Below are positions 41,735 through 55,406 of a stretch of 64,000 bases of DNA, piece after piece. The stretch is from Candidatus Pacearchaeota archaeon CG10_big_fil_rev_8_21_14_0_10_34_76 (GTDB taxonomy: Archaea > Nanobdellota > Nanobdellia > Pacearchaeales > GW2011-AR1). The notes beneath the pieces were generated by a model. It was not told the origin of the DNA. It saw only the letters and a list, made by a program, of their open reading frames with translations, and made no database searches. Each line of letters begins with the position of its first letter. Positions within the stretch are counted from its first letter, which is position 1. Position numbers and translations under genes: made by a program. Location of the stretch: positions 62,286 through 126,285 of the forward strand of contig PFDB01000002.1 of NCBI GenBank assembly GCA_002763075.1, given 5' to 3'.

Positions 41735-42708
41735 AAGGAAAAAAAGTTCTTATAACTGGAGGACTTGGATTCATTGGAAGTAATCTTGCGATAAAATGTT
41801 TGGAATTAGGAGCAGAGGTGTGCATTCTGGATAACCTAATGCCTGATACTGGAGCAAATTATCATAATATTGCCGGTTTTGAAGAGAAATTGGAAATCGT
41901 GGAGGGAGATATCCGTAATAGTGTGTTAATGAATGAGATAGTTAAAGAAAAAGATATTATCTTCAATCTCGCAGCTCAAGTGAGCCATGTTTTATCCATG
42001 GAAAATCCATTGCTTGATGTAGATATTAACTGCAAGGGACAGATAATTCTTCTTGAGGCATGCAGAATGAATAATCCAAGTGTGAAAATAGTTTATACTG
42101 GAACAAGAACTCAAACAGGATCTGTTGAAGGTGGTGTCATAAAAGAGATTATGAGGGATAATCCCAGTGATATATATGGGGCTGGAAAACTAGCTTCTGA
42201 AATATATCATCTGATATACTATAAGGCCTACGGGTTAAAGACAACTTCCTTAAGATTGACTAATATATATGGTCCAAGAGCGCAAATTAAAAATCCAAAA
42301 TACGGAGTTGTTAATTGGCTTATAGGAAAAGCAATAAGGGGGGAGGATTTGACCATATTTGAACCAGGAACTCAATTAAGAGATATTCTTCATGTTGATG
42401 ATGTTGTTGATGCTATGATTTTAGCTTCTGAGAAAGATGAGGCGAATGGAGAGGTTTTTCTATTGGGCTCTGGAAAAGGTATTTCATTAATAGAGATAGC
42501 TAACGATATTGTGAAATCTGTCGGAAATGGAAAGGTTAGATTAGTGCCTTGGCCTCCTGAGAGGAAGAATATTGAGGTGGGGGATGCGGTGTTGGATTGT
42601 GGTAAAATAAAAGAGAAATTGGGTTGGGAAGCTAAAATAAGTTTTGAAGAAGGTATGAAGAGAACGATTGAATTCTTTGAGAAAAATTTGAATAGATATT
42701 TAGGTTAA
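41731..42708 (+). CDS. NAD-dependent NDP-sugar epimerase/dehydratase (extended SDR)
   Basis: VLITGGLGFIGSNL; YGAGK (YxxxK). Confidence 0.75.
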   Translation: MKGKKVLITGGLGFIGSNLAIKCLELGAEVCILDNLMPDTGANYHNIAGFEEKLEIVEGDIRNSVLMNEIVKEKDIIFNLAAQVSHVLSMENPLLDVDINCKGQIILLEACRMNNPSVKIVYTGTRTQTGSVEGGVIKEIMRDNPSDIYGAGKLASEIYHLIYYKAYGLKTTSLRLTNIYGPRAQIKNPKYGVVNWLIGKAIRGEDLTIFEPGTQLRDILHVDDVVDAMILASEKDEANGEVFLLGSGKGISLIEIANDIVKSVGNGKVRLVPWPPERKNIEVGDAVLDCGKIKEKLGWEAKISFEEGMKRTIEFFEKNLNRYLG

Positions 42709-43676
42709 ATCAGAGAATCTAATTTTATGTTTCCAGAAGGAACCTCGTTAACTTTGTATCCTCTTTGTTCTAAAACTACTTTAGCAGATTTGTAAGCCTT
42801 CTCTCCAAAAAAATGTTTGGAATTGCTTAGAAGAGTTCCTAAACAATCATCTACTATTACAAACCCACCCGTTTGGGGAGAAGGTTTAGGAGTGTTTCCA
42901 AAGATGTCTGGTTTAACTCTCATTCCCCTAGAATTATCATTACCTATAGTACTCAAGACTTCATCTATCTCATTTAGAGAATAGACTAAAATATCTCTGC
43001 TTTTTTCTCCCATTCTACTCAGTAGCTCTTTTGCAGAAATTCCTAATTGAGTATAACCATTGAATTGAGAATCTAAGCTTACTTCAAATCCTCTTGAAAA
43101 TCCAGTATAAATCATATTTCCTATTTCATCTGGATTAATTCCTAAATGTCTGACGAGGTTCCATCTTGGAAATCCATCCATGTCGAACATTCCCTTGACT
43201 AGATTTGGATGTGCCTCTTGTGCCTTGACCAACCACATATTGGCATTCTGCCCGGCTGTAGGAATATCGTAAAATCCTGCTCCGTGTTGTGTTGCTCCTT
43301 CATCTCTTCTTGAGAACAATATCATTTCATCAGAAGTGATTGGCATTATCTCTGTGCTCAAACCATGAATAATAGTTGGAGAAGCGTTGCTTTTTCCAGT
43401 TTCTGAAGCTAGTTTGACCATTCCTAGTAAGTACTTGTAGCTTGTTGTGCTACAGTGTAAGAGAAACTTTCCTGGAGAAGATTCTACTTCTAATGTTGTT
43501 GGAATTGGTGAGCTTGTCCAACCTTTATTATCTTTGTCCCACTTTCTTTCTGCATATTCTCTGAATTCATTATCTATAACAAAATCCCTATCATTTAGGG
43601 CACCTACCATTGTTGAGTCTATAGGATTATCAGTTGTGTGAACGTAAAATTCTTGCCTGGGGAATGTTTTTTCCAT
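42705..43676 (-). CDS. hypothetical protein (323 aa)
   Basis: Intact ORF. The C-terminal GGFVIVDDCLGTLLS weakly resembles a PRTase-like nucleotide-binding motif. No confident family. Confidence 0.3.
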   Translation of the reverse strand: MEKTFPRQEFYVHTTDNPIDSTMVGALNDRDFVIDNEFREYAERKWDKDNKGWTSSPIPTTLEVESSPGKFLLHCSTTSYKYLLGMVKLASETGKSNASPTIIHGLSTEIMPITSDEMILFSRRDEGATQHGAGFYDIPTAGQNANMWLVKAQEAHPNLVKGMFDMDGFPRWNLVRHLGINPDEIGNMIYTGFSRGFEVSLDSQFNGYTQLGISAKELLSRMGEKSRDILVYSLNEIDEVLSTIGNDNSRGMRVKPDIFGNTPKPSPQTGGFVIVDDCLGTLLSNSKHFFGEKAYKSAKVVLEQRGYKVNEVPSGNIKLDSLI

Positions 43677-43900
43677 GTTTATCTGTTAAGAAAAGTGTTT
43701 AAAAATGTATGTGTAATCCGGATTTTTCAAAATTTACATTAGAATTATGCAAAAACAATATCAGTTTGTTAGATGGTTTGAAGAAGAAATTTCTAACTTT
43801 GAAATATGGTCCTAAAAAGCTAAAAAAATAATACTAGCCATTTTAAGGAAAGTTACGTTAATACATAGAATATAACTTATGTACAAAGTCTTAAAGAACA

Positions 43901-43934
43901 GCCTTGCACATAAATGATTAGTGTTTATGTGCAA
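43901..43934. repeat. perfect inverted repeat TTGCACATAAA-N12-TTTATGTGCAA enclosing the transposase stop codon
   Basis: Read directly. The arms carry the TATGTGCAA motif that is also reiterated at 49487-49553. Confidence 0.55.
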
Positions 43935-44925
43935 TATAGTTGTCTGCACATTTTTTAAAATTAATATCTATCTTATTTAAGAAAATCTCCTGAACCAAAC
44001 AGCAGAGGTTATGACACAGACACTTCAATAAAATCTCATTATCTTGGCTTATTTGCTTCTTACAGCGAACATTATTACCAAATCGTGCCTTAATCATGGA
44101 GAACACGCTTTCTACATTAGAACGCTTATGATAATGCTGTAAAAACTCATCTTTGTGTTCATTAAAATAGCGATACATTGTTCCCCAAATCCCCAATGTA
44201 TGATTTCTTACTCTCTTTCCAGAAGTGCTTTTTTTGAAAGGGATGTAGGGAACGGCTCCGAGTTCAGAAATTAGATTTAAATTTTTCCTTGAAGAATAAC
44301 CTTTGTCTGCTGAGACTTCTTGAACATTCCAGTTAGAGAATGTCCTTTTGACAACACCTTCAAATTGTGTAGAATCATGAGTATAACCTTCGGTAACCTC
44401 AACAGATGTTATTATGTTAGTCTTAACTCCACACATTGCATGGCATTTTCTGAACTCTCTCCTTTTCGCATTCTTGTCTCCATGTTTCACGTCAAACCAC
44501 CTCACAAATTTAGAGGTTCCGAATCCTGTCGCATCAACTGCAAAATCAAGTTCAATCTGTTTCAAAGGCAATGCAGATATTTCTATAAGCTCTTTTAGAA
44601 TTAATTTTAATGATGGTTCTTCAAGATATTTCAATAAAGTATTGAAATGAAATTCTTTATGAATAAGGTCAAGTTCTTTAGCAAGTTTTAGGTCGCTATG
44701 AACTCTACGTGAAGAGAAGGTTAAATAGTTCTTCAAGGCAAGAGCATAAATCATATCTGAATAGTTTACTGGCTTCCTTCCTTTGCTATGTGGTGGTTGT
44801 TCTATTAGATTACAGATTTCCCTTAGTAATTGCATGAAAATGGTTTTCTCTTTCATCTGGCTTTCATTATACTTGCTCCAGCTAAAGTTATCGGTCCAAT
44901 CCCAGAGGTTTCTTTGTTGTTCCAT
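43918..44925 (-). CDS. DDE transposase, IS4/IS5 superfamily (DDE_Tnp_1-like)
   Basis: 335 aa; Y-R-E-K signature YHKRSNVESVFSMIKARFG; DATGF... acidic residues. Confidence 0.7.
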   Translation of the reverse strand: MEQQRNLWDWTDNFSWSKYNESQMKEKTIFMQLLREICNLIEQPPHSKGRKPVNYSDMIYALALKNYLTFSSRRVHSDLKLAKELDLIHKEFHFNTLLKYLEEPSLKLILKELIEISALPLKQIELDFAVDATGFGTSKFVRWFDVKHGDKNAKRREFRKCHAMCGVKTNIITSVEVTEGYTHDSTQFEGVVKRTFSNWNVQEVSADKGYSSRKNLNLISELGAVPYIPFKKSTSGKRVRNHTLGIWGTMYRYFNEHKDEFLQHYHKRSNVESVFSMIKARFGNNVRCKKQISQDNEILLKCLCHNLCCLVQEIFLNKIDINFKKCADNYIAHKH

Positions 44926-45011
44926 TATATAAGCTATCTACTTATTATATAAGTATATAGGATATATAAACATTTCTATATACAAAACTACTACAAATAT
45001 AGAGAAACTAA

Positions 45012-46172
45012 TTAATTCTCAAAACCAAAGTTGTTTGCTCTTTTTACAAGTTCTTGAATAGTTATTTGTTCTTCTCTCTGAACTAAGTTATCTAAAAATT
45101 GTATTAATTTGAAAACACTTAGCGGATTATACTTTCTCCTTATTGCCCCTTCCAACAATTTGAGCCCAGACTTATCAAATTTGCCAAATACTGGATTTTC
45201 CTTAAATAACTCTAGGATTAGCTTTTCCTTATAGGAAAAAATTAATGGAACTGTGTATTGTTCATAAAATTTACCATAAATGTAATCCTCATAAGTCAAG
45301 GGAGTTAGGTTAGATATTTCATTTAAAACACCATCTGTTAAATATTTTTCAAATTCTCCTCTGAGAATTTTACTTTCCTTTCTAAATAAATCTGCAACTG
45401 TCCTATTTGTTAAATTTAATATTGTTTCAGGCTTATATCCAGATTCCAACCAAGAAGTATAATCTTTTGACTTTAAGTCTTGAGGGTCAACAACTTTAAT
45501 GACTTGTTTTTTCCCACCACCTTTCCAGTTTTTTGCCCAACCTTCAGCAACCAAACTAAAACAAGGCATAAATCTACAATCTTTATTATGCTCTCCTGAA
45601 AACTTAAATGGAACTGCAATAGTAAACACTCTTTTACCAGTAAGTGCCTTAAAAGTAACTACCCTCTTGACAACTTTTGAGAATGAAGGATAGCCTCCGA
45701 ATGGAGCACCATAGAAAACTGAAAGATAATCAAAATTATGACTCAAATCTGAAAGCTCCTGTGGAGGCATCTCAGATTTGTAAGACATTTCTAATACTAT
45801 TTCTTTGCTGAAGTTCCTATTAAGCTTTAGCTCTTCACATAAGTCAACCTTAGATTTCACGTCAAAATCATTTTCTTTTTTAAAATAAGGAAAAACTATA
45901 AAGTCAGAGTTTAGCTCAATTTGTTTATCTACTACTTTCTTTAACACTTCTTCCGAAAACACAGTTGCTGAACAATCAGGATAATTCAGAACTATCATAT
46001 TTTTCCTAACAAATTCTGAAATCTCTGGAAAGCTTTGGTCTGGCTTAGCACGATTGAAGTATATTGCTCCTTCAACGTAATCAACTCCCATCTCTTCTAG
46101 GTCTTTCTTAGTGTACATTCTAGCTGGTGAATGTAACTTCTTTCCGTTGTTAATTTTTATTATCTTCTTCAT
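45012..46172 (-). CDS. hypothetical protein (386 aa), cargo of the island
   Basis: Intact ORF overlapping the upstream HTH gene. No family recognised. TGT/DpdA-like motifs were looked for and not found. Confidence 0.3.
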   Translation of the reverse strand: MKKIIKINNGKKLHSPARMYTKKDLEEMGVDYVEGAIYFNRAKPDQSFPEISEFVRKNMIVLNYPDCSATVFSEEVLKKVVDKQIELNSDFIVFPYFKKENDFDVKSKVDLCEELKLNRNFSKEIVLEMSYKSEMPPQELSDLSHNFDYLSVFYGAPFGGYPSFSKVVKRVVTFKALTGKRVFTIAVPFKFSGEHNKDCRFMPCFSLVAEGWAKNWKGGGKKQVIKVVDPQDLKSKDYTSWLESGYKPETILNLTNRTVADLFRKESKILRGEFEKYLTDGVLNEISNLTPLTYEDYIYGKFYEQYTVPLIFSYKEKLILELFKENPVFGKFDKSGLKLLEGAIRRKYNPLSVFKLIQFLDNLVQREEQITIQELVKRANNFGFEN

Positions 46173-46569
46173 TTTCTATATTTAGTACGTAGTTTTTTAT
46201 TTTCTCAAATTCAGACTCCTTAAGTTTTTTTAAGGCATGAGTATATCTCTGGATTGTAACTCTATGTACTCCTAATTTTTGAGCCACCTCTTTGTTATTA
46301 TAGCCCCTCATCATAGTTAGAAGCACAGGTCTAAGCAAGTCTATATTGAAAGCATTAGCTTTACATATTTCTTCTACCTCTTTTTCAAGTTGTAAATTCT
46401 GTATTAATTTACCCATGTTACTAAGTGTAACATTGGACTTAATAAACCTTTCTATTGCACTATCCATGAACCTTTTCCTCCATGATAATAACATAAGCCC
46501 TATGTCCTGCAAAATCTTGAGAAGTAGATATATAGGCTCCAGAAGAATTTTTACTAACCTTTGTCTCAA
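46150..46569 (-). CDS. sigma-70 region-4-like HTH DNA-binding protein
   Basis: LLRPVLLTMMRGYNNKEVAQKLGVHRVTIQRYTHALKKLKE is a bacterial-type HTH. The true start may be the internal MDSAIERF. Confidence 0.45.
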   Translation of the reverse strand: MRQRLVKILLEPIYLLLKILQDIGLMLLSWRKRFMDSAIERFIKSNVTLSNMGKLIQNLQLEKEVEEICKANAFNIDLLRPVLLTMMRGYNNKEVAQKLGVHRVTIQRYTHALKKLKESEFEKIKNYVLNIENEEDNKN

Positions 46570-46783
46570 AAATTCTAATCGCTTTGTCTTTTGAAACTTT
46601 TATCTTGGAGTTTTTCTTGATAGATATGTTCTGAGCAAGCTCAAGTTTTTGTAACTCTTTATACTTTGGTGGTCTTGACATTACTTAGGTAATACTTAAG
46701 TAACTATTTAAGCATTTCTATCAAAAAGTTTATATACAAGCAGTTATTAGATAAGTTAATGACTTATAAAAAGTAGTGATAAA

Positions 46784-47044
46784 ATGGTTCAACATTTACC
46801 TGAATGGATAATGAAGCGTTATTCTAAACTGTGGAACAAATTCAAAGATAAAGAGTTTACAAAGGTAGATGCAGAAAAAGTTCTTACAGGTGATACCTCT
46901 CTTCCAGTTTTATTATCTGAATTGAGAAAAGCTGGATGGTTGGAGATGAAGATGTCTGAAGAAGATGCAAGAAAAACAATCTATAAGTTGAAAGACCCAA
47001 CAAAAGCAATCTTAGAAGAGATAAAGGAGTTGAGCAAAAAATGA
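46784..47044 (+). CDS. small hypothetical protein (86 aa), translationally coupled to the methyltransferase
   Basis: ATGA overlap with the MTase start; helical and basic. Possible specificity or regulator subunit. Confidence 0.3.
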   Translation: MVQHLPEWIMKRYSKLWNKFKDKEFTKVDAEKVLTGDTSLPVLLSELRKAGWLEMKMSEEDARKTIYKLKDPTKAILEEIKELSKK

Positions 47045-48030
47045 AACAGAAATCGTTAAATAAAAGATTACATGAGGCAAGAGGGAATAAGAATGATGAT
47101 TTTTATACACAACTAACTGATATTGAAAAAGAGTTGAAGCACTATAAAAAACATTTTAAAAACAAAGTAGTTTTTTGTAATTGTGATGACCCTCGCGTCA
47201 GTAATTTCTTTCACTATTTCTCATATAACTTTGAACAGTTAGGTTTGAAGAAACTAATTACTACTTGTTATAAAAATCAACAAATGAATTTGTTTAGTCA
47301 AAACAAATCTGAAAAAGCGATTTACTTAGAATATACTGGCGACAAAAATAAAAATAATGTCCCAGACCCTAAAGAAATCGGAATTAAACATTTAAAGGGT
47401 GATGGAGATTTTCGTAGCAAGGAATGTATTGAGTTGCTAAAACAATCAGATATTGTTGTTACCAATCCCCCATTTTCGTTATTTAGAGAATATGTCGCAC
47501 AGTTAATAGAATATAATAAAAAATTCATAATACTTGCACAACAAAATGCAATAACTTACAAGGAGACTTTTAACTTAATAAAAGAAAATAAGATTTGGTT
47601 AGGCGTTGATAATGGCGGGACAAAATGGTTTCAGGTTCCAAACAATTATGACATAACAACAGAATCAAGAAAGAAAGTAGAGGATGGTAAAAAGTTTTTT
47701 AGTATGGGTAGTGTTGTTTGGTTCACAAACTTAGATATTGAGAAAAGACATGAAGATTTAATCCTTTACAAAACATACAAAGGGCATGAAAAAGAATATC
47801 CAAAATATGATAAATACGATATTATTAATGTTGATAAAGTAAGCGATATTCCTATTGATTATAAGGGAGTAATGGGTGTGCCTATCACTTTCTTAGATAA
47901 ACATAATCCTGAACAATTTGAAGTTCTAGGAATTGCCAATAGTGCCAGATGGATTGGTTTTGAGTGCTATACTTTGATTAAGGGCAAGAAGATATATAAT
48001 AGAATTCTTATAAAGAATAAGAGAATTTAA
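47041..48030 (+). CDS. N6-adenine DNA methyltransferase (NPPF motif; EcoRI-methylase-like family)
   Basis: IVVTNPPFSLF motif IV of N6A/N4C MTases; 329 aa. Confidence 0.6.
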   Translation: MKQKSLNKRLHEARGNKNDDFYTQLTDIEKELKHYKKHFKNKVVFCNCDDPRVSNFFHYFSYNFEQLGLKKLITTCYKNQQMNLFSQNKSEKAIYLEYTGDKNKNNVPDPKEIGIKHLKGDGDFRSKECIELLKQSDIVVTNPPFSLFREYVAQLIEYNKKFIILAQQNAITYKETFNLIKENKIWLGVDNGGTKWFQVPNNYDITTESRKKVEDGKKFFSMGSVVWFTNLDIEKRHEDLILYKTYKGHEKEYPKYDKYDIINVDKVSDIPIDYKGVMGVPITFLDKHNPEQFEVLGIANSARWIGFECYTLIKGKKIYNRILIKNKRI

Positions 48031-48054
48031 ATAAATAGTTTCTAATATTATTCT

Positions 48055-49131
48055 ATGAAGATAGAACTCAAAAAAATTACAGTTGCCGAATTATCAAAAG
48101 GTTATCAAGACAATGCAGAAGCTGGTGTAGTTGGGTTCGGTGGCAAACTTGATATTCGTCCACCATTTCAAAGAGAATTTGTTTACAAAGACAAACAGCG
48201 TGATGCTGTTATTCACACTGTTACAAAGGATTTTCCTCTTAATGTAATGTACTGGGCTGTGCGTGATGATGGAACATTTGAGATAATAGATGGACAGCAA
48301 AGAACAATCTCACTTTGCCAGTATGTCGCAGGTGACTTCTCAATTAAAGGATTGGCGTTTCACAATCTTCCAAAAGATAAAAGAGAGCAAATCCTAAAAT
48401 ATCCTTTGATGATATATTTGTGTTCAGGAAAAGATAGCGAAAAATTAGAATGGTTCAGAACAATTAATATTGCTGGAGAACAGCTTACAGACCAAGAATT
48501 ACGAAACGCCGTTTATTCTGGTTCATGGGTTTCTGATGCCAAACGTTATTTTTCTAAAAATAGCAGACCAAAAATAGGTGATGATTATTTAAGCGGTAGT
48601 GCAATCCGACAAGAGTATTTGGAAACGGCTATTGACTGGATTTCAAAGGGGAAAATAGAGGATTACATGTCAAGGCATCAACATGACCCTAATGCAAATG
48701 AACTATGGCTATACTTTCAGGCAGTTATAAATTGGGTAAAAGTAACGTTCCCCAAATATCGTAAAGAAATGAAATCTGTCCCTTGGGGAGTTTTATTTAA
48801 TGAATTTAAAGATAAAAAACTTGATTCAAAGAAGCTGGAAAAAGAGATAACTGAGTTAATGCAAGATGATGATGTTACTAAAAAATCTGGGATTTATCCT
48901 TATGTCTTAACGAGAAACGAGAGATACCTAAACATTCGTTCTTTCACAGATAATATGAAAAGAGAAGCATACGAAAGACAGAAAGGTATTTGTCCTAAAT
49001 GTAAAAAACACTTTGAGATAGAAGGAATGGAAGCAGACCATATAAAACCTTGGCATGAGGGAGGGCAAACTATAGCAAAGAACTGCCAGATGCTCTGTAA
49101 ACAAGATAATAGGCTTAAATCGGGGATATAA
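48055..49131 (+). CDS. DUF262 (ParB/Srx-like, DGQQR) + C-terminal HNH nuclease protein; GmrSD-like defense nuclease
   Basis: IIDGQQRTISL DUF262 signature. C-terminal CPKCKKHFE...EADHIKPWHEGGQTIAKNCQMLCKQDNRLK HNH motif. Confidence 0.65.
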   Translation: MKIELKKITVAELSKGYQDNAEAGVVGFGGKLDIRPPFQREFVYKDKQRDAVIHTVTKDFPLNVMYWAVRDDGTFEIIDGQQRTISLCQYVAGDFSIKGLAFHNLPKDKREQILKYPLMIYLCSGKDSEKLEWFRTINIAGEQLTDQELRNAVYSGSWVSDAKRYFSKNSRPKIGDDYLSGSAIRQEYLETAIDWISKGKIEDYMSRHQHDPNANELWLYFQAVINWVKVTFPKYRKEMKSVPWGVLFNEFKDKKLDSKKLEKEITELMQDDDVTKKSGIYPYVLTRNERYLNIRSFTDNMKREAYERQKGICPKCKKHFEIEGMEADHIKPWHEGGQTIAKNCQMLCKQDNRLKSGI

Positions 49132-49132
49132 A

Positions 49133-49465
49133 ATGCTAGAACCACCAACAGATACAACAGGCAGTCCAATAAAAGAATTTATAGAGCAAACGAAGAATCA
49201 GGCTCTTGCTGGATTAGGAGACTGGGAGTTTAAAGCACCTATTGAATTAGAACTCAATACCATTGTTTCTGGCAAGGCTGGTGGAGGGATTGATATTAAG
49301 GTTATCAATTTTGGAGCCAAAGTTGAGGCTGAACAGCAGCAAAAAATCAAGATTTCTATAGGTCCAAAAGATGAAGCAGAACAAGAAGAAAAGAAGGCAA
49401 AAATAGAAACTGCGAAATACCTTCAAAAAAGACCCCATTTAAGTGTACCTAATGTAAATAAGTAA
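49133..49465 (+). CDS. small hypothetical protein (110 aa), possibly Trypco2-like beta-rich domain
   Basis: Start 2 nt after the DUF262-HNH stop. IELELNTIVSGKAGGGIDIKVINFGAKVE...KIKISIGP resembles the trypsin-co-occurring domain 2. From memory only. Confidence 0.3.
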   Translation: MLEPPTDTTGSPIKEFIEQTKNQALAGLGDWEFKAPIELELNTIVSGKAGGGIDIKVINFGAKVEAEQQQKIKISIGPKDEAEQEEKKAKIETAKYLQKRPHLSVPNVNK

Positions 49466-49486
49466 GCTATTTTAACCTATAAATTA

Positions 49487-49553
49487 TTTATGTGCAAAAA
49501 GAGTTTGTTAATGTGCAGTATTTAGATTATGTGCAAAGCCTTAAAGAACGTAA
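49487..49553. repeat. three direct TATGTGCA(A) motifs plus a 24-bp near-copy of 43878-43900 (ttatgtGcaaagCcttaaagaac); right island boundary
   Basis: Read directly. Motif spacing is 22 and 17 nt. Confidence 0.5.
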
Positions 49554-49848
49554 ATTATTTAAACCCCATGATTTGTTTAAAAATATGGGAATGTTGACAA
49601 GAAAAATTGAAGGAAGAGTATTAGATGTAAGTTATGGTTTTGACCCTGGAACCATGGGTAGCGATTATACCCGCATTAGTGTTGAAACGAATGATGGGCA
49701 AGAGTCTTTTGTATTTCGAGATCACACTCATCGTCCAATAGATAAGGGGGATCTTGTAAAAATTAGATCTCCTAGGATGGTTATTCATAATCTTTCTAAC
49801 TATTTATTAGGTGAGTCTTTTGCATTATCATATGAGGTTATTGAATGA
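49492..49848 (+). CDS. hypothetical protein (118 aa, GTG start)
   Basis: ORF overlapping the repeat cluster. Immediately upstream of, and overlapping, the epimerase gene. Confidence 0.3.
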   Translation: MQKEFVNVQYLDYVQSLKERKLFKPHDLFKNMGMLTRKIEGRVLDVSYGFDPGTMGSDYTRISVETNDGQESFVFRDHTHRPIDKGDLVKIRSPRMVIHNLSNYLLGESFALSYEVIE

Positions 49849-50792
49849 AGGTTCTTGTTACTGGAGGACTTGGGCATATAGGATCTAAACTTATCAGAGA
49901 GTATGCTAAAAGAGATGATGTTGAACTTGTGAGAGTTTTAGACAACTTTTTTGTGCAGAGATATTGTTCTTTATTTGACCTTCCTCTAAATAAAAAATAT
50001 GAGTTTATAGGGGGAGACATTAAGAACAAGGAAGATGTTGAAAAGGCCGTGAAGGATATTGACCTTGTCGTGCATTTGGCTGCAATCACTGATGCACCTT
50101 CCACTATAAATAATGAGGAGGAAACGTTTAGGGTGAATTTAGAAGGCACAAAAAATGTTTTAGAAGCGTCTGCTAAGGCAGGGGTTAAGAGATTCTTGTT
50201 CCCTTCAACTACCTCTGTTTATGGTGAAGCTGAAGGCGTTGTTGATGAAAAAACAATTGATTTGAAACCTGCCAGCCCCTATGCAAAAGCAAAGTTAGAG
50301 GCGGAATCTTTTGTTAAAAATGCTTACAAAGAACTTGGAATTGAAACTATTGTTTTAAGAAAGGGGACCATATTTGGAACCAGTATCGGTATGAGGTTCC
50401 ATACTGCCGTAAATAAATTCTGCTATTTGGCTGCAATGAATAAGCCATTGACTGTCTGGGATAGCGCTTTAGAAAGCAAGAGGCCTTATTTGAGTTTGGA
50501 TGATGATATTAAAGCACTTCAATTCTTTGAGAAAAATGGAAGTCCTGGAGAATTATATAATGTTTTGACTAAGAATTACACTATGCATGAAATAATAGAT
50601 GCAATTAAAAAACATGCTCCTGAAACTAATATAACTATAACTAAATCACCCATTTTGAACCAAAAGCCTTATCATGTTGATGACAGGAAAATTAAAGAAT
50701 TAGGATTTGTTCCTGAAGGGAACCTTGATGAAGATATAGGAAAAACTCTAAGATTGTTTAAGGCTATACAAAATTCTAATCTAGGCATTTAA
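49845..50792 (+). CDS. NAD-dependent NDP-sugar epimerase/dehydratase (SDR)
   Basis: VLVTGGLGHIGSKL; YAKAK (YxxxK). Confidence 0.7.
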   Translation: MKVLVTGGLGHIGSKLIREYAKRDDVELVRVLDNFFVQRYCSLFDLPLNKKYEFIGGDIKNKEDVEKAVKDIDLVVHLAAITDAPSTINNEEETFRVNLEGTKNVLEASAKAGVKRFLFPSTTSVYGEAEGVVDEKTIDLKPASPYAKAKLEAESFVKNAYKELGIETIVLRKGTIFGTSIGMRFHTAVNKFCYLAAMNKPLTVWDSALESKRPYLSLDDDIKALQFFEKNGSPGELYNVLTKNYTMHEIIDAIKKHAPETNITITKSPILNQKPYHVDDRKIKELGFVPEGNLDEDIGKTLRLFKAIQNSNLGI

Positions 50793-54920: not shown

Positions 54921-55406
54921 TCAGGGGCTAGGTTCTAGAGTGTCTAAACTCCAGCCAAGTCTTTTCAGAATGAGCTGTATCTGATGCTTTACCTTTTCTA
55001 TACATGAAGAGTCTTCAACATACTTCTTGATTTTATCCAATCCTCCATGGTCACTTACCTTGTCGATATGACATCCATCGCTCCAAAATTCTCCTCCCCA
55101 TAATTCTCGCTTGATCTCGCGGAATCGCTTGAAGATCATCCACGCAATGATGCTCTTGATGATTTGCATCACTTCACTCGGCGCATAACGGGGAGCTGTG
55201 CCCACGACAATATGCAAATGATCTTCTTCCATACCTATCGCATCAAACTTGAACCAGTATCTCTCACCAATACCCTTGAGAGGCTCCTTCCCGTATTCAA
55301 CAGGAACTTTTTTCAGAAAGAGCTTCTTGCGATACTTTAAAACAAATACCCTGTGATATCGAATGCGGTAGGTACCATGACATGCTCGCTCAAGCTCAAT
55401 AGCCAT
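54921..55406 (-). CDS. tnpA: IS200/IS605-family TnpA (HUH/Y1 transposase)
   Basis: YHRVFVLKYRKK, DHLHIVV HuH motif, LWGGEFWSDG...KKYVE. GC-rich relative to flanks. No tnpB nearby. Confidence 0.7.
   Translation of the reverse strand: MAIELERACHGTYRIRYHRVFVLKYRKKLFLKKVPVEYGKEPLKGIGERYWFKFDAIGMEEDHLHIVVGTAPRYAPSEVMQIIKSIIAWMIFKRFREIKRELWGGEFWSDGCHIDKVSDHGGLDKIKKYVEDSSCIEKVKHQIQLILKRLGWSLDTLEPSP

What the first reader, a model, noticed from the sequence alone, without database searches (positions are those of the whole stretch)
43876..49560. 5.7-kb mobile/defense island inserted in the glycan-biosynthesis locus, bounded by TATGTGCAA-type repeats
Between the NDP-sugar genes at 40.8-43.7 kb and the epimerase genes at 49.8 kb lies a block unrelated to glycan synthesis. 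It holds an IS4/IS5-type DDE transposase, an unknown 386-aa protein with a bacterial sigma-70-region-4-like HTH partner, an N6-adenine DNA MTase, a DUF262+HNH nuclease and two small proteins. Its two edges share a 24-bp near-identical direct repeat: ttatgtAcaaagTcttaaagaac at 43878 and ttatgtGcaaagCcttaaagaac at 49527. Both edges carry reiterated TATGTGCAA motifs. This is the signature of an integrated or transposed element, or of a one-ended IS-mobilised cargo, disrupting an otherwise coherent operon set. The HTH protein hints at bacterial or viral provenance.
Basis: partly seen in the sequence, partly recalled or inferred. Interest (0 to 1): 0.7.

Follow-up and report, generated by a model that had tools for sequence, protein, structure and literature searches.

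The report
Transposon carrying restriction-modification genes in Pacearchaeota
The 5.6-kb block is a complete jumping-gene element that carries a DNA restriction-modification system into a tiny archaeon's sugar-coat gene cluster, and it belongs to a so-far undescribed family of elements that ferry different restriction systems around.

Summary
The block is one unit transposon at window 43900-49540 (5,641 bp). It ends in inverted repeats (AGCCTTGCACATAA ... TTATGTGCAAAGCC). Each end holds three TGTGCA-type sites. A perfect 9-bp target-site duplication, TTAAAGAAC, flanks it (43891-43899 and 49541-49549).

It matches a degenerate extra end copy (43877-43890) plus the duplication on the left.

Five relatives have the two flanking genes directly adjacent, with no island. 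Nine further loci carry transposases of the same family (39-89% identical). All nine hold cargo upstream of the transposase. Seven of them show matching ends with their own perfect 9-bp duplications in unrelated flanks. In one more the contig stops at the terminus, and in one the far end lies off the contig.

The transposase is IS5-family. Its end sequence (GGCTTTG...) and 9-bp duplication resemble IS903. Cargo here is an EcoRI-family methylase plus a DUF262-HNH type II nuclease, 57-67% identical to pairs on bacterial plasmids. It also includes a conserved 86-aa winged-helix gene and a three-gene module with a TGT-like TIM-barrel protein.

Sister elements carry other restriction-modification systems. 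I rate this a new variant of a known kind (cargo-carrying insertion sequence), and unusual for archaea.

The parts
43857..43890 (.). Degenerate extra copy of the element's distal end. It lies outside the element, directly left of the left target duplication. The core is 43877-43890, TTATGTACAAAGTC.
   Evidence: 12 of 14 identical to 49527-49540; 77% over 43 nt. No such copy lies next to 8 other elements.
43891..43899 (.). Left copy of the 9-bp target-site duplication, TTAAAGAAC.
   Evidence: Identical to 49541-49549. An automated scan for inverted termini plus a duplication returned this single solution.
43900..43955 (+). Transposase-proximal end. Terminal inverted repeat AGCCTTGCACATAA (43900-43913), an inverted second site (about 43925-43936) and a third site (about 43943-43953). 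It overlaps the 3' end of the transposase gene.
   Evidence: Aligns with the transposase-side ends of L029, L030, L032, L033 and L034. ATGTGCA copies at 43905(-), 43927(+) and 43945(-).
43918..44925 (-). IS5-family DDE transposase, 335 aa.
   Evidence: Pfam DDE_Tnp_1 E 4e-25. NCBIfam transpos_IS5_2 scored 141.1 bits against a cut-off of 140. D131, D207, E272 and Y265/R268/K279 are invariant in 21 homologues.
45012..46172 (-). 386-aa TIM-barrel protein with a C-terminal helical domain. The fold is closest to tRNA-guanine transglycosylases. Function unknown.
46150..46494 (-). HTH protein of about 105 aa. The conserved start, MDSAIERF, is at 46467. It overlaps the start of the 386-aa gene by 23 nt.
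   Evidence: Weak GerE / sigma-70 ECF / HTH_3 hits. 78-82% identical partners precede the 386-aa homologues in L058 and L060.
46460..46681 (-). 73-aa protein, first gene of the three-gene module.
   Evidence: Conserved at 82% and 48% in L058 and L060, in the same order.
46682..46703 (.). Tandem palindromic pair TACTTAGGTAA / TACTTAAGTAA in the divergent intergenic region. Candidate operator.
   Evidence: The function is inferred only.
46784..47044 (+). 86-aa winged-helix-like protein. It is the first gene of the methylase operon, with a 4-nt overlap. It is a conserved backbone gene of the transposon family.
   Evidence: 70-74% identical in L060 and L034, 47% in L030, 38% in L181. Each time it sits directly upstream of a different methylase family.
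47041..48030 (+). EcoRI-family N6-adenine DNA methyltransferase, 329 aa, with an NPPF motif.
   Evidence: Pfam PF13651 E 3e-131 over the full length. PADLOC MTase_II E 1.6e-128. The sequence reads TNPPFS.
48055..49131 (+). DUF262 (GmrSD_N) plus HNH nuclease, 358 aa. It matches a type II restriction-enzyme model over its full length.
   Evidence: PADLOC REase_II PDLC03418 E 9.4e-144, residues 1-356 on model positions 1-370 of 372. Pfam GmrSD_N and HNH. 57-67% identical to plasmid genes paired with EcoRI-family methylases.
49133..49465 (+). 110-aa protein of unknown function. Last cargo gene.
   Evidence: Weak Trypco2 hit, below cut-off. Also present in L029.
49486..49540 (-). Distal end with three same-orientation sites. 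The terminal inverted repeat, read inward, is GGCTTTGCACATAA (49527-49540).
   Evidence: About 90% identical to the L029 distal end. Aligns with L030, L032, L034 and L053. ATGTGCA copies at 49490, 49511 and 49529.
49541..49549 (.). Right copy of the 9-bp target-site duplication, TTAAAGAAC.

Best explanation
Window 43900-49540 is a single 5,641-bp cargo-carrying insertion sequence (a 'transporter IS' or unit transposon) built on an IS5-family DDE transposase. It inserted into the short divergent intergenic region between the 323-aa gene and the epimerase operon of a Pacearchaeota (DPANN) genome.

Shown:
- Two inverted termini.
- Three TGTGCA-type sites at each end.
- A perfect 9-bp target duplication.
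- Empty sites in relatives.
- The same end architecture with different 9-bp duplications in other genomes.
- A modular cargo.

Inferred mechanism: the transposase binds the terminal repeat and the subterminal sites at both ends. It pairs the ends, moves the whole segment, and joins it to staggered cuts 9 bp apart, which repair turns into the duplication.

Inferred cargo function: the cargo is a type II restriction-modification pair. The EcoRI-family m6A methylase protects the host. The DUF262-HNH nuclease attacks unmethylated incoming DNA and penalises loss of the element. The conserved 86-aa winged-helix gene at the head of the methylase operon probably acts as its regulator. The divergent three-gene module (73 aa, HTH, TGT-like TIM barrel) is a separable accessory cassette of unknown role.

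State of this copy: its transposase-side terminus carries two substitutions at otherwise conserved positions, so it may no longer move efficiently.
For: 1. Ends and duplication. An automated search for a 9-bp duplication plus at least 12 of 16 inverted-terminus matches gave one solution in the window: 5,641 bp with TTAAAGAAC.

2. Same design elsewhere, each with its own perfect duplication:
- L029: 5,017 bp, GAAGAAACC.
- L030: 5,819 bp, TATATTTTA.
- L034: 4,753 bp, GATTAATCA.
- L181: 6,666 bp, TATCCATGA.
- L182: 4,800 bp, CGAGGTTTG.
- L048: 3,704 bp, ATGGAAGGG.
- L053: 5,425 bp, TCGAGGAGG.

3. An alignment of 13 ends shows the conserved terminus GGCTTTGCA and the site layout.

4. Empty site. 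In L017/L028, L019, L020, L024 and L026 the orthologues of the two flanking genes are adjacent and divergent, and no island gene is present.

5. Transposase. IS5-family HMM above cut-off. DDE and Y(2)R(3)E(6)K residues are invariant. IS903B has the repeat GGCTTTGTTGAATAAATC and a 9-bp duplication (PMC10569121).

6. Restriction-modification pair. Full-length matches to MTase_II and REase_II models. The same overlapping gene pair occurs on bacterial plasmids at 57-67% identity.

7. Modularity. Nucleotide similarity to L029 covers only 43901-44980 and 47037-49540. Sister elements carry an EcoRV-like nuclease with a Dam-like methylase (L032), MvaI/BcnI with an N4/N6 methylase (L034), GmrSD with an Eco57I-type methylase (L181), or AAA_14/DUF4143 ATPases (L033, L182).

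8. The 86-aa gene is conserved upstream of four methylase families.
Against: - No transposition was observed. Every contig of this population that reaches the junctions has the element at this site, so no recent gain or loss is documented.
- Only one copy is seen in the 64-kb window.
- The transposase-side terminus differs at positions 1 and 4 from the consensus.
- Similarity to named IS5-family transposases is low, 21-30%. No IS903 hit appeared at E 1e-5, so assignment to the IS903 group rests on the end sequence and the duplication length only.
- The NCBIfam score passes its cut-off by about 1 bit.
- Nuclease and methylase activities, the recognition site, and the regulator role of the 86-aa protein are all inferred. 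GAATTC is not depleted in the host DNA.
- The extra end copy at 43877-43890 is unexplained.
Confidence: 0.88

Rival explanations
1. An integrase-type genomic island or provirus remnant, whose 23-bp direct repeats are attL and attR.
For: A 21-of-23 direct repeat brackets the block.
Against: No integrase or recombinase other than the DDE transposase is present, and no tRNA gene is nearby. The repeat breaks down into a terminal inverted repeat plus a 9-bp duplication. Sister elements have the same termini but unrelated 9-bp duplications and no long direct repeat.
Confidence: 0.02
2. A small ordinary IS lies next to restriction-modification genes that arrived separately. The TGTGCA motifs would be host regulatory sites of the glycan operons.
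For: Glycan loci are variable and collect insertions. The motifs sit in promoter-like intergenic DNA.
Against: No second terminus lies upstream of the transposase gene. The partner terminus is 5.6 kb away and the duplication brackets the whole block. The motifs are absent from the relatives' intergenic DNA. They accompany the transposase into non-glycan contexts. All nine further loci with family transposases hold cargo upstream of the transposase, and where both ends were found (eight of them, seven with their own duplication) the cargo lies inside the ends.
Confidence: 0.03
3. One-ended or surrogate-end mobilisation (ISCR/TMo-like). A single IS end would have dragged adjacent DNA along.
For: The transposase sits at one extreme of the block, and the gene content next to it varies between copies.
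Against: The distal end is not a surrogate. It is a conserved three-site end with the same 14-bp terminus in independent elements, 80-90% identical between the window, L029 and L032 despite different cargo. Regular 9-bp duplications indicate two-ended transposition.
Confidence: 0.04
4. A sub-hypothesis compatible with the main one: the element arrived by transposition but is now a fixed, immobile relic. It would be kept because the restriction-modification pair is useful or addictive.
For: The transposase-side terminus has substitutions at two positions that are at least 90% conserved. The same insertion is present in every sample that holds this population. A degenerate extra end lies 9 bp away.
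Against: The transposase reading frame is intact with all catalytic residues. The duplication is perfect. The distal end matches the consensus exactly.
Confidence: 0.4

Closest known systems
IS903 / IS903B (IS5 family, IS903 group)
   Same: A DDE transposase of the IS4/IS5 type with the Y(2)R(3)E(6)K signature. The terminal inverted repeats start with GGCTTTG. The target duplication is 9 bp (IS903B: repeat GGCTTTGTTGAATAAATC, duplication of 9 bp; PMC10569121).
   Different: IS903 is about 1.06 kb and carries only its transposase (my own knowledge). This element is 5.6 kb with seven passenger genes. Its ends carry three repeated sites rather than one 18-bp repeat. No IS903 hit appeared in a tblastn search of PLSDB plasmids at E 1e-5, and the nearest named IS5 transposases are 21-30% identical.
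Transporter IS (tIS) and unit transposons with passenger genes
   Same: One transposase gene plus unrelated passenger genes inside a single pair of inverted repeats, flanked by one target duplication (definition in PMC9330008).
   Different: Here the cargo-bearing state appears to be the rule for the whole clade: 10 of 10 loci examined, counting the window (six archaeal-type and three bacterial/viral-contig relatives at 39-89% transposase identity). The cargo is mainly interchangeable restriction-modification systems behind a conserved small winged-helix gene. The host is a DPANN archaeon. A 2019 survey stated that passenger-carrying DNA transposons had not been detected in archaea (PMC6563490). 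Since then only the Asgard 'aloposons' have been cited as such (PMC11529989).
EcoRI-family methylase plus DUF262-domain gene pairs on bacterial plasmids (e.g. Sulfitobacter indolifex pDSM14862_g, Aeromonas caviae p1)
   Same: Same gene order and tight coupling. The nuclease is 57-67% identical. Both genes match PADLOC type II models over their full length.
   Different: On the two plasmids inspected, the pair is not inside an IS5-type transposon and has no 86-aa winged-helix gene annotated in front of it.
Tn7-like transposons carrying defence cargo
   Same: Multi-site transposon ends and a variable cargo rich in defence genes (my own knowledge, not tested here).
   Different: This element has a single DDE transposase of the IS5 type, no TnsABC-type machinery, a 9-bp rather than 5-bp duplication, and no evident attachment-site targeting. 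The eight duplications share no consensus.
tRNA-guanine transglycosylase / DpdA superfamily (for the 386-aa cargo protein only)
   Different: There is no sequence-profile match to any TGT family. The margin over generic TIM barrels is small (11.7). Zinc-site and catalytic aspartates were not verified.

Membership tests
IS5 family (ISfinder sense) | DDE transposase of the DDE_Tnp_1 type with conserved D, D, E and the Y(2)R(3)E(6)K signature. | tested here: met
   Pfam E 4e-25. D131, D207, E272, Y265, R268 and K279 are invariant in 21 homologues.
IS5 family (ISfinder sense) | Curated family HMM above its cut-off. | tested here: met
   NCBIfam NF033579 transpos_IS5_2, 141.1 bits against a cut-off of 140. 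This is a borderline pass.
IS5 family, IS903 group | 9-bp target-site duplication. | tested here: met
   Perfect 9-bp duplications in the window and in 7 related elements. IS903B also has a 9-bp duplication.
IS5 family, IS903 group | Terminal inverted repeats beginning GGCTTTG. | tested here: met
   Consensus GGCTTTGCA in 13 ends. IS903B repeats begin GGCTTTGTTGAATAAATC. The window's transposase-side end deviates (AGCCTTG).
IS5 family, IS903 group | Recognisable sequence similarity of the transposase to IS903-group transposases. | tested here: inconclusive
   tblastn against PLSDB at E 1e-5 returned only 47 records of other IS5-family elements at 21-30% identity. None was labelled IS903. No direct comparison with the IS903 protein was possible.
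Simple insertion sequence | 0.7-2.5 kb, encoding only transposition functions. | tested here: not met
   5,641 bp with seven non-transposase genes between the termini.
Transporter IS / unit transposon | A single transposase plus passenger genes inside one pair of inverted repeats, with one target duplication around the whole. | tested here: met
   Definition from PMC9330008.
Transporter IS / unit transposon | The same element type occurs at different genomic sites. | tested here: met
   L029, L030, L034, L181, L182, L048 and L053 have unrelated flanks and different duplications.
Transporter IS / unit transposon | Demonstrated mobility. | not testable with these tools
   Needs read-level population data or a mating-out or papillation assay.
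Composite transposon | Two IS copies flanking the cargo. | tested here: not met
   One transposase gene only. The distal end is a bare 55-bp end.
Integrase-mediated genomic island | Tyrosine or serine recombinase and att direct repeats, often at a tRNA gene. | tested here: not met
   No integrase. The nearest tRNA genes are more than 33 kb away. The direct repeat is explained as terminus plus duplication.
Type II restriction-modification system | A DNA methyltransferase with catalytic motifs, adjacent to a nuclease gene of a restriction-enzyme family. | tested here: met
   MTase_II E 1.6e-128 and REase_II E 9.4e-144, both full length. NPPF motif. HNH E 1.5e-10. 24-nt spacing between the genes. 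The pair is conserved on plasmids.
Type II restriction-modification system | A defined recognition sequence, with cleavage blocked by the cognate methylation. | not testable with these tools
   Palindrome statistics gave no clear candidate. GAATTC is seen 23 times against 28 expected.
tRNA-guanine transglycosylase / DpdA superfamily (386-aa protein) | A TGT-type TIM barrel with catalytic aspartates and a zinc site, and a family HMM match. | tested here: inconclusive

The most novel reading that the evidence does not exclude
The window holds one member of an undescribed clade of IS5-like transposons. The clade is shared by DPANN archaea and by bacteria or their phages. Its members appear never to exist as bare ISs. 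They use three-site ends with a near-invariant GGCTTTGCA terminus. In the archaeal branch they act as a plug-in platform: a conserved 86-aa winged-helix gene sits in front of at least four unrelated methylase families, each with its own nuclease. If so, this would be a dedicated vehicle that moves restriction-modification systems between genome-reduced archaea, with at least one cargo pair recently shared with bacterial plasmids. A further, less likely layer is that the TGT-like TIM-barrel module is a new nucleic-acid base-exchange or modification cassette.
Probability: 0.45. Interest if true: 0.7.

Novelty: new variant of a known kind. Interest (0 to 1): 0.58.

Why it matters
Passenger-carrying DNA transposons are a main route of gene spread in bacteria, but they have rarely been reported in archaea. 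PMC6563490 stated in 2019 that none had been detected, and later work cites only the Asgard 'aloposons'. DPANN archaea have tiny genomes and are reported to be poor in restriction-modification systems (PMC12988326).

A transposon family whose usual load is a swappable restriction-modification cassette gives a concrete mechanism for how such systems enter and shuffle among these organisms. It also shows how bacterial plasmid-type systems could cross the domain boundary.

The element is small and well delimited, with known ends, a known duplication length and a single transposase. That makes it a candidate for a genetic tool in archaea that currently have none. It also shows that the sugar-coat gene cluster of this organism was interrupted in its divergent promoter region.

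Tried and rejected
- Inverted repeats immediately around the transposase gene. None were found, which led to pairing the transposase-side end with the far end.
- Extension of the left-hand remnant into the cargo. Local alignment supports only 23 nt firmly.
- Exact-protein look-ups of both flanking genes and the transposase, to find an empty site in the same population. All contigs carry the element or break inside it.
They gave relatives at 46-53% identity only and no close strain.
- A scan of viral contigs for the 14-mer terminus gave 120+ single hits that look like chance matches and was not used. The pair of hits in L053 had already been found among fetched loci.
- Palindrome depletion as a guide to the recognition site. 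Only GATC stands out, and it is unrelated to an EcoRI-family enzyme.
- Rfam search of 43000-50500 found nothing.
- 'Insertion with long target duplication', a mechanism proposed in the literature for restriction-modification gene units (my own recollection), was considered for the 23-43-nt repeat. It was rejected because the termini and the 9-bp duplication explain the structure.
- L060 has the three-gene module, an 88-aa homologue and a type III-like system next to a transposase only 31% identical. No TGTGCA ends were found there, so it was not counted as a family member.

Full report
**1. What is in the sequence**

The window is archaeal. It encodes STT3/AglB and Alg13/14-type genes and ribosomal protein operons. 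The transposase protein is identical to COU60_00755 of [quoted passage not shown]. The same contig occurs in several ENA and JGI metagenome assemblies.

Between the 323-aa gene (42705-43676, minus strand) and the epimerase operon (from 49845) lie eight genes:
- a DDE transposase;
- a 386-aa protein with no family hit;
- a small HTH protein;
- a 73-aa protein;
- an 86-aa winged-helix-like protein;
- an EcoRI-family methylase;
- a DUF262+HNH nuclease;
- a 110-aa protein.

The motif clustering is far beyond chance. All four exact TATGTGCAA copies, and six of twelve ATGTGCA copies in 64 kb, sit at the two edges.

**2. Empty site**

One scan of species-representative genomes and one of JGI metagenomes with the 323-aa flank protein found twelve loci, eleven of them distinct (L017 and L028 are the same contig), at 46-53% identity. 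In five independent ones (L017/L028, L019, L020, L024, L026) the orthologue of the 315-aa epimerase (62-72% identical) lies divergently next to the 323-aa orthologue. The gap is 60-145 nt in four of them and about 580 nt in L024. The 327-aa orthologue follows in L017/L028 and L026; in L019, L020 and L024 it lies on the other side of the 323-aa orthologue. None of the island proteins has a match there. The intergenic DNA of L017 has no TGTGCA motif. The block is therefore an insertion into a conserved divergent gene pair.

**3. The real boundaries**

Homologues of the transposase at 89% (L029) and 66% (L030, L031) identity sit in the same arrangement: transposase, variable genes, EcoRI-family methylase, DUF262-HNH nuclease. 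Their flanks are unrelated to the window's.

In all of them the TGTGCA sites recur at two places: overlapping the 3' end of the transposase gene, and as a cluster of three beyond the last cargo gene.

Read outward, both termini end in ...TTATGTGCAAAGCC. The sequence diverges immediately outside, and the 9 bp outside are identical on the two sides:
- TTAAAGAAC in the window;
- GAAGAAACC in L029;
- TATATTTTA in L030.

An automated scan required a 9-bp duplication and inverted termini. It returned exactly one solution per locus:
- window: 5,641 bp;
- L029: 5,017 bp;
- L030: 5,819 bp;
- L034: 4,753 bp, GATTAATCA;
- L048: 3,704 bp;
- later L181: 6,666 bp, TATCCATGA;
- later L182: 4,800 bp, CGAGGTTTG.

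L053 was found through an exact match of the 14-bp terminus. It is 5,425 bp with the duplication TCGAGGAGG. L032 has both ends, but its contig stops at the terminus.

The element in the window is therefore 43900-49540, with duplications at 43891-43899 and 49541-49549.

The 13-end alignment shows a near-invariant GGCTTTGCA terminus and two classes of end. The distal end has three sites in one orientation. The transposase end has its middle site inverted.

**4.

On the right, the 23 nt are the last 14 nt of the element plus the duplication. On the left, they are 14 nt of flanking DNA (43877-43890, TTATGTACAAAGTC, 12 of 14 identical to the distal terminus) plus the other duplication copy. Weaker similarity runs back to 43857.

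So a degenerate extra end lies 9 bp from the transposase-side terminus, in tandem orientation. This local "end, 9 bp, end" layout resembles a dimer or circle junction. None of eight other elements has such a copy within 120 nt.

I cannot decide between three origins:
- a relic of an earlier copy at the same target;
- a relic of a tandem dimer that was later mostly deleted;
- insertion attracted to an end-like sequence.

IS903-type elements are reported to use both replicative and conservative pathways and to cause adjacent deletions (PMC11708052). That makes such relics plausible but does not explain this one.

**5. Family of the transposase**

It matches DDE_Tnp_1 and the NCBIfam IS5-family model just above its cut-off (141.1 against 140). 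D131, D207 and E272, and the Y265-(2)-R268-(3)-E272-(6)-K279 signature, are invariant among 21 homologues.

The terminus GGCTTTG... and the 9-bp duplication are those of IS903B (repeat GGCTTTGTTGAATAAATC, duplication of 9 bp; PMC10569121).

Protein similarity to named IS5-family elements on plasmids is only 21-30%, and no IS903 hit appeared. I therefore call it IS5-family and IS903-like in its ends. I do not call it a member of the IS903 group.

**6. A cargo-carrying clade**

I examined nine further loci holding transposases 39-89% identical to the window's. Six are archaeal-type: L029, L030, L032, L033, L034, L181 and L182 less none — that is, L029, L030, L032, L033, L034, L181, L182 count as seven archaeal-type loci at 52-89%. 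The bacterial/viral-contig relatives L048 and L053 (39-40%) complete the nine. All nine hold 2.6-5.5 kb of other genes upstream of the transposase. In eight of them both termini were located, so the cargo lies between the distal end and the transposase; in L033 the distal end lies off the contig. No bare IS was seen.

Cargo by locus:
- Window, L029, L030: EcoRI-family methylase plus DUF262-HNH.
- L032: EcoRV-like nuclease, Dam-like methylase, a PD-(D/E)XK protein and Fic.
- L034-L039: MvaI/BcnI-type nuclease (split), an N4/N6 methylase and a DprA-like gene.
- L181: GmrSD plus an Eco57I-type N6 methylase.
- L033 and L182: AAA_14/DUF4143 ATPases.
- L053: an XRE-ImmA/IrrE-like protein and small ORFs.
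- L048: an HTH protein and unknown ORFs.

More distant relatives in IMG/VR contigs of 47-68% GC (39-45% identical) carry an extra N-terminal CxC...CxH segment. At least L043, L048, L053 and L055 among them show GGCTTTGC termini with three subterminal repeats. L043 and L055 carry methylase-type cargo, and L055 also shows a matching duplication at a one-base offset. L053 has exactly the same 14-bp terminus as the Pacearchaeota element.

Nucleotide comparison shows the modules. The window and L029 share 43901-44980 (83%) and 47037-49540 (89%) but not the middle. Contigs from other samples break within a few bases of 44980 (L008, L009). That fits co-resident variants sharing the transposase module, but this is an inference.

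**7. Cargo of the window's element**

Methylase and nuclease. They match PADLOC's type II models over their full length (E 1.6e-128 and 9.4e-144). The methylase has the NPPF motif. The nuclease has an HNH domain. The same tightly coupled pair occurs on plasmids of four bacterial phyla at 57-67% identity. This points to exchange of this cassette between bacteria and DPANN archaea.

The 86-aa gene. It overlaps the methylase start. It is 70-74% identical in L060 and L034, 47% in L030 and 38% in L181. Each time it is the first gene before a different methylase family. It behaves as a backbone gene of the cargo slot. I infer a regulatory role, with the palindromic pair at 46682-46703 as a candidate operator.

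**8. Mechanism, with status**

Shown:
- structure of the ends;
- the duplication;
- empty sites in relatives;
- multiple insertion sites;
- modular cargo.

Inferred from established IS4/IS5 biology:
- the transposase binds the terminal and subterminal sites, pairs the ends and inserts with 9-bp staggered cuts;
- the restriction-modification pair defends the host and stabilises the element.

Open questions:
- whether this copy is still mobile, given that its transposase-side terminus (AGCCTTG) deviates at two conserved positions;
- the recognition site, since GAATTC is not depleted while GATC is;
- the role of the three-gene module;
- the origin of the extra end copy.

**9. Novelty**

Transporter ISs and unit transposons with passengers are well known in bacteria (PMC9330008). 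For archaea, a 2019 survey stated that passenger-carrying DNA transposons had not been detected (PMC6563490). A 2024 paper cites only the Asgard "aloposons" as transposons with cargo (PMC11529989). A 2026 census reports restriction-modification systems as under-represented in DPANN (PMC12988326).

My literature searches for this end sequence, and for Pacearchaeota transposons with restriction genes, found nothing relevant. Those searches cover open-access text only.

I therefore rate the element a new variant of a known kind. It has moderate to good interest, mainly because the family looks like a dedicated shuttle for interchangeable restriction-modification cassettes.

Noticed in passing
window 54921-55406 (-): A 161-aa ORF labelled PF01797 Y1_Tnp (IS200/IS605-type TnpA) in the precomputed annotation of the identical contig. 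It is a second, unrelated mobile element 5 kb downstream in the same glycan locus.
   Followed up: no
window 49585-49848 (+) (alternative GTG start at 49492): An 87-118-aa ORF between the element and the epimerase gene, overlapping the epimerase start by 4 nt. It has no Pfam, NCBIfam or PADLOC hit. It is absent from all five relatives in which the two flanking genes abut. It is either an orphan gene or a leftover of older insertions.
   Followed up: partly
window, all DNA outside 43900-49540: GATC is strongly under-represented (111 observed, 204 expected, z -6.5). GAATTC is not (23 against 28) and AATT only mildly. This suggests past or present GATC-directed restriction unrelated to this element.
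   Followed up: no
L008 and L009 (starting at about window 44978-44986); L011-L016 and the end of L002 (window about 48937-49056): Contigs from other samples of the same population break about 55 nt upstream of the transposase start. That is exactly the module junction seen against L029. They also break at scattered points in the last 200 nt of the nuclease gene. This may reflect co-existing element variants.
   Followed up: partly
L058 6489-8161: The 73-aa / HTH / 386-aa (TGT-like TIM barrel) module occurs alone, without a transposase, between SbcCD-like genes and a proteasome subunit gene. It is 75% identical in DNA to window 45011-46736.
   Followed up: partly
L034-L036 1-3258: Directly beside that locus's transposon lies a second cluster with a C5 cytosine methylase, an IS240-type transposase and an RE_Bsp6I nuclease fragment. 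The site is a small restriction-modification hot spot.
   Followed up: no
window 46682-46703: Two adjacent 11-nt near-palindromes (TACTTAGGTAA, TACTTAAGTAA) sit right at the start of the 73-aa gene, in the divergent intergenic region. GTAATAC-type repeats also occur upstream of the transposase in L029.
   Followed up: no
L043, L044, L048, L053, L055 (IMG/VR contigs, 49-65% GC): Distant transposase relatives (39-45% identical) carry an extra N-terminal CxC...CxH segment, which looks like a SWIM zinc finger. It is missing from the archaeal proteins. Their ends keep the three-site design, with TTGCCCA sites in place of TTGCACA in L043, L048 and L055.
   Followed up: partly
window 43900-43913: The transposase-side terminus reads AGCCTTGCACATAA. 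Positions 1 and 4 differ from the G and T found in at least 90% of the 13 aligned ends, so this copy may be impaired for transposition.
   Followed up: partly
L060 1045-9197: A transposase only 31% identical is preceded by the same three-gene module, an 88-aa homologue of the 86-aa gene, and a type III-like set (N6/N4 methylase, ResIII helicase, PD-(D/E)XK protein). No TGTGCA ends were found there. It may be a sister transposon family with different ends.
   Followed up: partly
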